From: an uncultured Chloroflexia bacterium
GTDB taxonomy: Bacteria > Chloroflexota > Limnocylindria > Limnocylindrales > CSP1-4
Assembly (NCBI GenBank): GCA_963738475.1
Contig: CAVTWU010000008.1
Location: 8,605-72,604, forward strand
DNA: 64,000 bases
Direction of reading: 5' to 3'
Position 1 is the stretch's first letter; each line of letters begins with the position of its first letter. Positions 33,788 through 34,213 of the stretch are shown here, piece after piece. Made by a program: the position numbers and the translations under genes. A model generated the notes under the pieces. It had not been told where the DNA came from, ran no database searches, and saw nothing but the letters and a program-made list of their open reading frames with translations.

Positions 33788-34213
33788 AAAAAAAAAAAAA
33801 AAAAAAAAAAAAAAAAAAAAAAAAAAAAAAAAGACAAGGGCAAGATCAAGACCCACAAGCTTGGCAAGCGCAGCGTCGGGAAGGGCGCCGGGATCGGCCT
33901 CAAAAAAAAAAAAAAAAAAAAAAAAAAAAAAAAAAAAAAAAAAAAAAAAAAGGCGCCGAGGATCGGCCTCATCCTCGCGGTGGTCGCCCCTAAAAAAAAA
34001 AAAAAAAAAAAAAAAAAAAAAAAAAAAAAAAAAAAAAAAAAAAAAAAAAAAAATCCTCGCGGTGGTCGCCCCTCCGACAAAAAAAAAAAAAAAAAAAAAA
34101 AAAAAAAAAAAAAAAAAAAAAAAAAAAAAAAAAAAAAAAAAAAAAAAAAAAAAAAAAAAAAAAAAAAAAAAAAAAAAAAAAAAAAAAAAAAAAAAAAAAA
34201 AAAAAAAAAAAAA
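33788..34213. repeat. four pure poly-A runs (33788-33832 = 45, 33902-33951 = 50, 33992-34053 = 62, 34079-34213 = 135 nt) separated by 69-, 40- and 25-nt GC-rich islands; probable gap filler / assembly artefact
   Basis: Counted from the printed sequence. Islands overlap one another: 18 nt, 20 nt and 5 nt are duplicated across runs 2, 3 and 4. A fifth A14 run lies at 34611-34624. Confidence 0.95.

What the first reader, a model, noticed from the sequence alone, without database searches (positions are those of the whole stretch)
33788..34213. Poly-A runs of 45, 50, 62 and 135 nt cut one ORF into staggered, mutually overlapping islands
Seen:
- In a strongly GC-rich window, four stretches are pure A.
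- The islands between them are 69, 40 and 25 nt.
- The 18 nt left of run 2 (ggcgccgggatcggcctc) recur right of it with one extra a.
- The 20 nt left of run 3 (tcctcgcggtggtcgcccct) recur exactly right of it.
- ccgac flanks run 4.
- Deleting the runs plus one copy of each duplicate gives a continuous, sensible DUF1269-like sequence (..GKGAGIGLILAVVAPPTL..AGVIGGGILGALHHKGLGL..) that flows into the downstream ORF.
- Run 1 has no duplicated flanks. It sits where the N-terminus and promoter of that gene, and the end of the sigma-coupled gene, should be.

Inference: these are not poly-Lys coding segments or native DNA. The pattern of a gap flanked by overlapping contig ends fits scaffold gaps or unknown bases rendered as A, or poly-A read tails used as bridges.

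If the runs were real, they would be poly(A) insertions with target-site-duplication-like flanks inside a bacterial gene. That is retroposition-like, has no bacterial precedent I know of, and would be extremely slippage-prone.
Basis: partly seen in the sequence, partly recalled or inferred. Interest (0 to 1): 0.7.

Follow-up and report, generated by a model that had tools for sequence, protein, structure and literature searches.

The report
Poly-A runs are an assembly artefact
The four long runs of A, plus a fifth short one, are not part of the organism's DNA: they are filler left where a poor-quality assembly strung overlapping pieces of one ordinary gene together, so this is a data-quality flag and not biology.

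Summary
Pure A runs of 45, 50, 62 and 135 nt lie at the stated coordinates, with islands of 69, 40 and 25 nt and duplicated flanks of 18/19, 20 and 5 nt. I add a fifth run of 14 A (34611-34624). I also add two junctions without A that re-read about 95 and 72 nt (34717 and about 34973).

A contiguous short-read metagenome contig from a close relative (L001) is tiled in order by every island. In 22 homologous loci, including L001, the 312 nt at 33902-34213 correspond to only about 20-21 nt. No homopolymer of 10 or more occurs in about 440 kb of related loci. Elsewhere in the window the longest homopolymer is 6.

The whole window is indel-ridden, at about 1 frameshifting indel per 105 nt against an Illumina-assembled relative. 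The defect zone is about three times worse.

The gene underneath is an ordinary 247-aa DUF1269 plus helix-hairpin-helix protein, common in soil Chloroflexota. Run 1 hides its first 45 codons.

Verdict: a local assembly or consensus breakdown, about 0.97 for an artefact of some kind. I could not decide whether the A's are in the deposited record or are gap characters rendered as A, because the source record was not retrievable. Interest is very low.

The parts
32678..33308 (+). ECF-type sigma-70 gene, split over two reading frames by an indel. It forms the left context of the defect.
   Evidence: Pfam Sigma70_r2 (6.5e-11) in one frame and Sigma70_r4_2 (1.3e-10) in another. A GAGGAGG ribosome-binding site and a GTG start follow the conserved 5' UTR.
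33305..33787 (+). Sigma-coupled (anti-sigma-like) ORF read in three shifting frames. It runs up to run 1. Whether it ends at TGA 33780-33782 or is cut off by the run is unresolved.
   Evidence: Translations and GC3 phase. No Pfam hit. No homologue next to the DUF1269 gene in the other loci fetched.
33788..33832 (.). A run 1 (45 nt). It is a junction with missing sequence: the first 45 codons of the DUF1269 gene and its upstream region are absent.
   Evidence: L001 1-149 has no counterpart in the window. P0001 residues 1-45 are missing.
33833..33901 (+). Island 1 (69 nt), corresponding to codons 46-68 of the DUF1269 gene (DKGKIKTHKLGKRSVGKGAGIGL).
   Evidence: Matches L001 150-219 at 97% and 92-99% (full length) in homologous loci.
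33902..33951 (.). A run 2 (50 nt), filler.
   Evidence: No counterpart in any homologue.
33952..33991 (+). Island 2 (40 nt). It re-reads the last 18 nt of island 1, with a 1-nt insertion, and adds 21 new nt.
   Evidence: Matches L001 198-239; overlap analysis.
33992..34053 (.). A run 3 (62 nt), filler.
34054..34078 (+). Island 3 (25 nt). It re-reads 20 nt of island 2 exactly and adds 5 new nt.
   Evidence: Matches L001 219-244 at 100%.
34079..34213 (.). A run 4 (135 nt), filler.
34214..34610 (+). Main body of the DUF1269/HHH gene. It re-reads CCGAC and contains frameshifting indels and a garbled patch at 34376-34425.
   Evidence: Lies within the BLAST match L001 240-726 = window 34214-34717: 92% identity, 15 gap openings in 512 nt. 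Pfam DUF1269 (3.5e-4, below the curated cut-off) and HHH_5 (1.2e-3) on the collapsed protein.
34611..34624 (.). A run 5 (14 nt), not in the finding. It stands where the relative has a single A (GCCG-A-GACC).
34625..34716 (+). First copy of the C-terminal segment, with a garbled end.
   Evidence: Corresponds to L001 632-726. 51 nt are identical to the second copy.
34717..34838 (+). Second copy of the same segment (re-reading about 95 nt with no filler), continuing to the orthologous stop codon TAG at 34836-34838.
   Evidence: Lies within the BLAST match L001 632-872 = window 34717-34952.
34873..35052 (.). Tandem re-read of an 80-nt segment at a spacing of 100 nt (34873-34952 and 34973-35052, 99% identical), between the gene and the M48 peptidase gene.
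   Evidence: L001 carries one copy (L001 801-872 matches both).
35050..36005 (-). HtpX-like M48 peptidase gene, frameshifted. It forms the right context, and the assembly returns here to the background level of quality.
   Evidence: Pfam Peptidase_M48 3e-14, partial. L001 801-1049 matches 34981-35231 with only 2 gaps.

Best explanation
The runs are non-genomic filler produced when the sequence was assembled.

The window is a low-accuracy, indel-rich consensus of the kind given by lightly polished or low-coverage error-prone long reads. This platform call is an inference from the error profile. Between 33.79 and 35.05 kb the consensus broke down. Seven successive pieces of one contiguous stretch were laid end to end in the correct order and orientation instead of being merged.
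- At five joints a pure A run was emitted.
- Three of those five, and both joints without A, repeat the end of the previous piece (19, 20, 5, about 95 and about 72 nt).
- One joint (run 5) simply inflates a single genuine A to 14.
- One joint (run 1) hides missing sequence: the first 45 codons of the gene, its upstream region, and possibly the end of the sigma-coupled gene.

The real locus is an ordinary 247-aa DUF1269 plus helix-hairpin-helix gene of a soil Chloroflexota bacterium.

What is shown:
- the tiling of the pieces;
- the absence of the runs in all relatives;
- the window-wide indel noise;
- the restriction of the defect to 1.3 kb.

What is inferred:
- The A's are in the deposited record and arose at the read or consensus stage, for example as homopolymer-length blow-ups at genuine A positions from stalled reads or run-length errors, or as a default base for uncovered columns.
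- A strain-level structural difference at this spot (the sigma/anti-sigma block present or absent) may have caused the local breakdown.
For: 1. Tiling. L001, a contiguous 1049-nt short-read contig, matches the window as:
   - 150-219 = 33833-33902
   - 198-239 = 33949-33991
   - 219-244 = 34053-34078
   - 240-726 = 34214-34717
   - 632-872 = 34717-34952
   - 801-1049 = 34981-35231
2. In L001, L002 and the other homologous loci that match on both sides, the alignment goes from 33901 straight to 34214, with about 20-21 nt of their own sequence in between.
3. The orthologous proteins read ...GKGAGIGLILAVVAPPTLLAGVIGGGILGALHHKGLGL... without any insertion.
4. There is no homopolymer of 10 or more in 67 related loci, about 440 kb. 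Outside the defect the longest homopolymer in the window is 6.
5. A runs and close direct repeats occur only at 33.79-35.05 kb.
6. The window has pervasive frameshifts.
   - The GC3 phase flips every 300-600 nt.
   - The ABATE, luciferase-like and LeuS genes each need 3-5 frames.
   - There are 37 indel events in about 3.9 kb against the Illumina contig L047; 35 are not multiples of 3, and insertions outnumber deletions 27:10.
   - The defect zone has 15 gap openings in 512 nt.
7. Two re-read joints have no filler, and the islands are only 25-40 nt. A scaffolder placing Ns between contigs would not produce either.
8. Runs 2, 3 and 5 abut a genuine A of the underlying sequence. Run 5 replaces exactly one A.
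9. Long-read metagenome assemblers are documented to emit repeats that no read supports, and regions with no coverage (10.1101/2025.04.22.649783).
Against: - The source record and reads could not be inspected. The exact flank-plus-A pattern is absent from both contig collections, and two window proteins are not on record.
- I know of no documented assembler behaviour that emits exactly this pattern of a pure A run plus a re-read.
- There are 306 A's without one interruption, in a zone with about 6% gap columns and about 1.5% mismatches relative to L001. That looks more like a placeholder character than like base-called sequence.
- Duplicate copies are identical over 20, 51 and 76-79 nt, so they are not independent noisy reads.
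- Run 4, and probably run 1, do not abut a genuine A.
Confidence: 0.62

Rival explanations
1. The same local assembly breakdown occurred, but the runs were gap or no-call characters (N) of estimated length in the source scaffold. Something downstream later rendered them as A, for example a 2-bit encoding or a default base. This is still an artefact. It differs from the best explanation only in where the A's came from.
For: - The runs are perfectly pure, 306 of 306 A, inside the noisiest part of the window.
- The window has no N at all.
- The flank-plus-A pattern is not found in either public contig collection. That would be expected if the public record holds N there, although it is equally expected if the record is simply not in, or is masked in, those collections.
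- Uncollapsed overlapping contig ends around gaps are a familiar scaffold defect (general knowledge).
Against: - Two joints of the same kind carry no filler (34717, about 34973).
- Islands of 25 and 40 nt are shorter than the contigs scaffolders normally place.
- Run 5 replaces exactly one genuine A.
- The window-wide, insertion-biased indel noise points to a long-read-type consensus. Assemblers of that type do not, to my knowledge, emit variable-length N gaps.
- Other loci served by the same tools keep their N (L065).
Confidence: 0.3
2. The A runs existed in a sequenced molecule but not in the genome. A library-preparation chimera, for example from poly(A) tailing or template switching, was captured in a single long read. 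It survived into the consensus because coverage was about 1x.
For: The local error level is close to that of raw reads. The runs are pure and of varied length.
Against: All pieces are collinear, in the same orientation and in genomic order, with small overlaps. Random ligation or chimera formation would not give that. No adapter or primer sequence is evident at the joints. Two joints lack A.
Confidence: 0.05
3. These are real genomic poly(A) insertions with target-site-duplication-like flanks inside a bacterial gene, arising by retroposition or by repeated break repair with untemplated A addition.
For: Only the bare pattern of an A run flanked by short direct repeats at runs 2-4.
Against: - There is no inserted element body, only A.
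- The 'duplications' are 19 (with an indel), 20, 5, 0 and 0 nt. The same re-read phenomenon occurs twice without any A, at 95 and 72 nt.
- The gene's first 45 codons are missing at run 1.
- None of the related loci has anything comparable.
- Rfam finds no group II intron or retron RNA in the window.
- Four or five independent events within 840 nt, in a window with no homopolymer longer than 6 elsewhere, is wildly improbable.
Confidence: 0.02
4. The runs are genuine coding poly-lysine tracts, or phase-variable homopolymeric tracts of the gene.
For: An ORF (33647-34981) stays open through all the runs. This is trivial, because AAA has no stop in any frame.
Against: - Lys codons in clean stretches of the window are AAG 36: AAA 0, including 6 of 6 in island 1.
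- Orthologues have no Lys-rich insertion.
- Run lengths of 50, 62 and 14 are not multiples of 3.
- The flanks duplicate coding sequence.
- To my knowledge, contingency tracts are single, about 6-20 nt long and not flanked by repeats.
Confidence: 0.01

Closest known systems
Uncollapsed overlaps or negative gaps at joins in draft assemblies (contig ends duplicated on both sides of a gap filler)
   Same: The filler is flanked by the same sequence on both sides. Removing the filler and one copy restores a contiguous gene that matches relatives.
   Different: The filler here reads as A, not N. The pieces are as short as 25 nt. Two joins have no filler. One run replaces a single base.
Assembler-generated repeats and uncovered regions in long-read metagenome assemblies (Trigodet et al. 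preprint, 10.1101/2025.04.22.649783)
   Same: Tandem repeats appear in a contig that relatives do not have, inside an otherwise long contig. [quoted passage not shown]
   Different: That paper does not mention homopolymer filler: 0 occurrences of 'homopolymer' or 'poly'. I could not check read support here.
Non-LTR retrotransposition or processed-pseudogene insertion (poly(A) tail plus target-site duplication)
   Same: An A run is bracketed by short direct repeats at runs 2-4.
   Different: There is no element body and no reverse transcriptase or endonuclease context. The overlaps are variable and imperfect. Identical re-reads occur without A. Nothing comparable is seen in relatives. There is no bacterial precedent.
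Phase-variable homopolymeric tracts (contingency loci)
   Same: A homopolymer lies inside or next to a coding region.
   Different: The lengths are 14-135 nt, against the usual 6-20 or so. There are five tracts within 840 nt, with duplicated flanks, in a 73% G+C genome whose longest other homopolymer is 6. Relatives lack them.

Membership tests
Assembly or consensus artefact (uncollapsed overlapping pieces joined by filler) | The pieces on either side of the filler overlap, and together they tile a sequence that is contiguous in an independent assembly. | tested here: met
   L001 is tiled in order by six pieces with overlaps of 22, 21, 5, 95 and 72 nt in L001 coordinates.
Assembly or consensus artefact (uncollapsed overlapping pieces joined by filler) | The filler has no counterpart in any homologous locus. 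| tested here: met
   Homologous loci matching both sides jump from 33901 to 34214 across about 20-21 nt. There is no homopolymer of 10 or more in 67 loci.
Assembly or consensus artefact (uncollapsed overlapping pieces joined by filler) | Sequence quality drops locally, against a background of poor consensus. | tested here: met
   15 gap openings in 512 nt locally, against 37 indels in 3.9 kb elsewhere. Frameshifts run across the whole window.
Assembly or consensus artefact (uncollapsed overlapping pieces joined by filler) | No raw read spans the structure as written. | not testable with these tools
Scaffold gap (N run) rendered as A | The source record shows N at the same coordinates. | not testable with these tools
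Scaffold gap (N run) rendered as A | Every join between pieces carries gap characters. | tested here: not met
   The joins at 34717 and about 34973 re-read 95 and 72 nt with no filler.
Retroposition-type insertion (poly(A) plus target-site duplication) | An inserted element or cDNA body lies 5' of the poly(A). | tested here: not met
   Between the duplicated flanks there is only A.
Retroposition-type insertion (poly(A) plus target-site duplication) | Exact target-site duplications bracket each insertion. | tested here: not met
   Run 1 has none, run 5 has none, and run 2's differs by an indel. Only runs 3 and 4 have exact ones.
Retroposition-type insertion (poly(A) plus target-site duplication) | Reverse-transcriptase machinery or an associated RNA is present. 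| tested here: inconclusive
   Rfam finds only two tRNAs in the window. I did not scan the proteins of the whole window for reverse transcriptase.
Phase-variable homopolymeric tract or poly-Lys coding repeat | The tract is present, at variable length, in orthologues, and its codon usage is compatible with the genome. | tested here: not met
   Orthologues lack it. Lys codons are AAG 36: AAA 0.
DUF1269 plus HHH protein family (the gene underneath) | Full-length similarity to the 247-aa family, with a DUF1269 membrane-associated region and a C-terminal helix-hairpin-helix. | tested here: met
   The collapsed protein hits P0001 at 1.2e-78, 92% identity and 100% query coverage, with 1529 hits in all. 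Pfam gives DUF1269 at 3.5e-4 (below the curated cut-off) and HHH_5 at 1.2e-3. The N-terminal 45 residues are missing from the window.

The most novel reading that the evidence does not exclude
The A runs are physically present in the genome. That would mean repeated untemplated poly(A) additions with short target-site duplications inside a bacterial gene, from a retroposition-like or aberrant break-repair process clustered in one 0.8-kb hotspot.
Probability: 0.02. Interest if true: 0.85.

Novelty: not a real feature. Interest (0 to 1): 0.04.

Why it matters
It matters only as quality control. The region 33.79-35.05 kb should be masked, and the whole window treated as frameshift-prone, before any gene calling, protein clustering or model training. 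As written, it yields a spurious 444-aa 'poly-lysine protein' and a truncated or duplicated DUF1269 gene. If the A's are in the public record, the pattern (a pure homopolymer of 14 nt or more in a high-G+C genome, flanked by a direct repeat) is a cheap screen for the same defect elsewhere. No biological conclusion should be drawn from it.

Tried and rejected
1. Finding the source record.
   - An exact flank-plus-A pattern gave 0 hits in genome contigs and in metagenome contigs.
   - An island-1 pattern gave 0 hits in viral contigs.
   - Exact-protein look-ups of the DnaE2-like ORF and the intact PGK ORF were not on record.
   - So I could not check whether the record holds N or A.
2. Asking whether the duplicated tRNA-like hit (39.3 and 41.4 kb) was another assembly duplication. 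Rejected: they are two different tRNA-Ala genes, anticodons GGC and CGC.
3. Asking whether the sigma/anti-sigma block upstream is a chimeric splice.
   - It is unique among the loci fetched.
   - It starts cleanly after the conserved 5' UTR, with its own ribosome-binding site and start codon.
   - A real strain-specific insertion is therefore at least as likely. Left open.
4. Inferring the sequencing platform from homopolymer-length spectra. This was uninformative. The indel spectrum is insertion-biased and not restricted to homopolymers, which is suggestive only.
5. Two literature searches for a documented 'poly-A plus re-read' artefact. I found general reports of unsupported repeats in long-read metagenome assemblies, but nothing describing this exact signature.
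6. The poly-Lys, contingency-tract and retroposition readings. Rejected on codon usage, orthologues and anatomy.

Full report
**The observation**

The window (about 73% G+C) contains exactly five homopolymers of 8 nt or more, all of A and all within 840 nt:
- A45 at 33788-33832
- A50 at 33902-33951
- A62 at 33992-34053
- A135 at 34079-34213
- A14 at 34611-34624

The flank duplications are as described: 18 nt recurring as 19 with one inserted A across run 2, 20 nt exact across run 3, CCGAC across run 4, and none at run 1. With pA = 0.137 the chance expectation is between 1e-7 and 1e-112 per run.

Outside 33.7-35.1 kb the longest homopolymer in the window is 6 nt. A window-wide repeat scan finds close direct repeats of this kind only between 33.79 and 35.05 kb. 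That scan also shows two tandem re-reads with no A between them: 34629-34679 = 34723-34773 (51/51 identical) and 34873-34952 = 34973-35052 (79/80 identical).

**What lies underneath**

Removing the runs and one copy of each duplicate, and repairing the frame, gives a 162-aa sequence. It hits 1529 proteins. The best is P0001, at 92% identity over the whole query, E = 1.2e-78. The family is about 247 aa long. It carries a DUF1269-like region and a C-terminal helix-hairpin-helix; Pfam on the collapsed protein gives DUF1269 at 3.5e-4 (below the curated cut-off) and HHH_5 at 1.2e-3. Most members come from soil metagenomes. Named members are Chloroflexota or 'Candidatus Limnocylindrales', and the genomic relatives are mostly 'uncultured Chloroflexia' long-read MAGs.

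Orthologues read ...DDKGKIKTHKLGKRSVGKGAGIGLILAVVAPPTLLAGVIGGGILGALHHKGLGL... with nothing inserted. Their first 45 residues, MAxKTVVLAFF...LVLD, are absent from the window. Run 1 sits exactly there.

**The decisive comparison**

P0001 is encoded on L001, a contiguous 1049-nt JGI short-read contig. BLAST of L001 against the window gives six collinear pieces that tile L001 with overlaps:

| L001 | Window |
|---|---|
| 150-219 | 33833-33902 |
| 198-239 | 33949-33991 |
| 219-244 | 34053-34078 |
| 240-726 | 34214-34717 |
| 632-872 | 34717-34952 |
| 801-1049 | 34981-35231 |

So 312 nt of the window (33902-34213) stand for about 20 nt of real sequence. Run 5 stands where L001 has one A (GCCG-A-GACC).

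Twenty-one further homologous loci were fetched. Those that match on both sides show the same jump from 33901 to 34214 across about 21 nt of their own sequence. None of the 67 related loci, about 440 kb in all, has a homopolymer of 10 or more.

**Quality of the window as a whole**

The codon-position G+C phase flips every 300-600 nt along all 64 kb. Proteins from the Illumina-assembled relative L047 need several frames to align:
- four frames for a 190-aa ABATE protein;
- at least five pieces for LeuS;
- four pieces in three frames for the luciferase-like protein.

At the DNA level there are 37 indel events in about 3.9 kb. Of these, 35 are not multiples of three, and insertions outnumber deletions 27 to 10. 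Many are not in homopolymers. The sigma-70 gene just upstream is split between two frames, and the M48 peptidase gene downstream is also broken.

The window is therefore a roughly 99%-accurate consensus of the sort produced by low-coverage or lightly polished error-prone long reads. That platform call is an inference. In the defect zone the discrepancy relative to L001 rises to 15 gap openings in 512 nt. Perfectly matching stretches there are separated by garbled patches.

**Mechanism**

What is shown:
- The region is a string of seven ordered, same-strand, partly overlapping pieces of one contiguous stretch.
- Five joints carry a pure A run and two carry nothing.
- One joint (run 1) has lost sequence.

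What is inferred:
- The consensus stage failed locally and concatenated pieces instead of merging them.
- The A's are either overblown homopolymer calls or default bases in the deposited sequence (my preferred reading, 0.62), or gap characters later rendered as A (0.30).

Points favouring A's in the record:
- Two joints of the same kind have no filler.
- Islands of 25-40 nt are too short for scaffolded contigs.
- Run 5 replaces exactly one genuine A, and runs 2 and 3 also abut a genuine A.
- Other loci served by the same tools keep their N.

Points favouring the placeholder reading:
- The runs are perfectly pure (306 of 306 A) inside the noisiest stretch.
- The flank-plus-A string is absent from both public contig collections.

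I could not retrieve the source record, so this stays open. Long-read metagenome assemblers are documented to emit repeats that no read supports, and stretches without coverage (10.1101/2025.04.22.649783). That paper does not describe homopolymer filler.

A possible trigger is a structural difference at this very spot. In L047, L048 and L002 the gene follows the luciferase-like gene directly. In the window the conserved 5' UTR (32604-32680) is instead followed by an ECF sigma gene with its own ribosome-binding site, and then by a sigma-coupled ORF. Neither is found beside the gene in any other locus fetched. A mixture of strains with and without this block would tangle an assembly graph here. 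This is speculation.

**Biological readings rejected**

- *Poly-lysine coding.* Lys codons in clean stretches are AAG 36: AAA 0. Orthologues have no insertion. Three run lengths are not multiples of three. The ORF through the runs is open only because AAA has no stop in any frame.
- *Contingency tract.* There are five tracts of up to 135 nt with duplicated coding flanks, in a genome whose other homopolymers stop at 6.
- *Retroposition-like insertion.* There is no element body. The 'duplications' are missing or imperfect at three of the five runs. The same re-reads occur without A. The gene's N-terminus is missing. Rfam finds only two tRNAs. I leave about 2% for any real-DNA reading.

**Verdict**

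This is not a real feature, and its interest lies only in quality control.

Noticed in passing
window 1-64000: Frameshifts are pervasive. The GC3 phase flips every 300-600 nt. There is about 1 frameshifting indel per 105 nt against the Illumina contig L047, with insertions outnumbering deletions 27:10. A few stretches look clean, for example pgk at 60580-61821 and 51.4-53.5 kb.
   Followed up: partly
It stands in place of a single A of the relative L001.
   Followed up: yes
window 34625-34810 and 34873-35052: Two tandem re-reads with no A filler. One has a unit of about 94 nt with 51 nt identical. The other has a 100-nt unit with 79 of 80 nt identical. Both are single-copy in L001.
   Followed up: yes
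window 32678-33787: An ECF sigma gene plus a sigma-coupled ORF lie between the conserved 5' UTR and the DUF1269 gene. Relatives L047, L048 and L002 lack this block, and it is not beside the gene in any other locus fetched. It is either a strain-specific insertion or a mis-join.
   Followed up: partly
window 39322-39397 and 41359-41434 (minus strand): Two tRNA-Ala genes (anticodons GGC and CGC) lie 2 kb apart, flanking a methyltransferase-like ORF. They are different genes, not an assembly duplication.
   Followed up: yes
window 55354-56288: A degenerate 12-nt-period repeat (CCGACGCCGACA-like) occurs in two blocks, probably a low-complexity coding region (family D2).
   Followed up: no
window 25000-29000: A 4-kb stretch has about 80% G+C, against about 72% elsewhere. 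Long ORFs are open on both strands.
   Followed up: no
L002 6001-6717 (ENA ERZ25039591 contig_57791): The orthologue P0004 is 238 aa long with a garbled C-terminus, against 247 aa in the family. This suggests a frameshift error in that related long contig as well.
   Followed up: no
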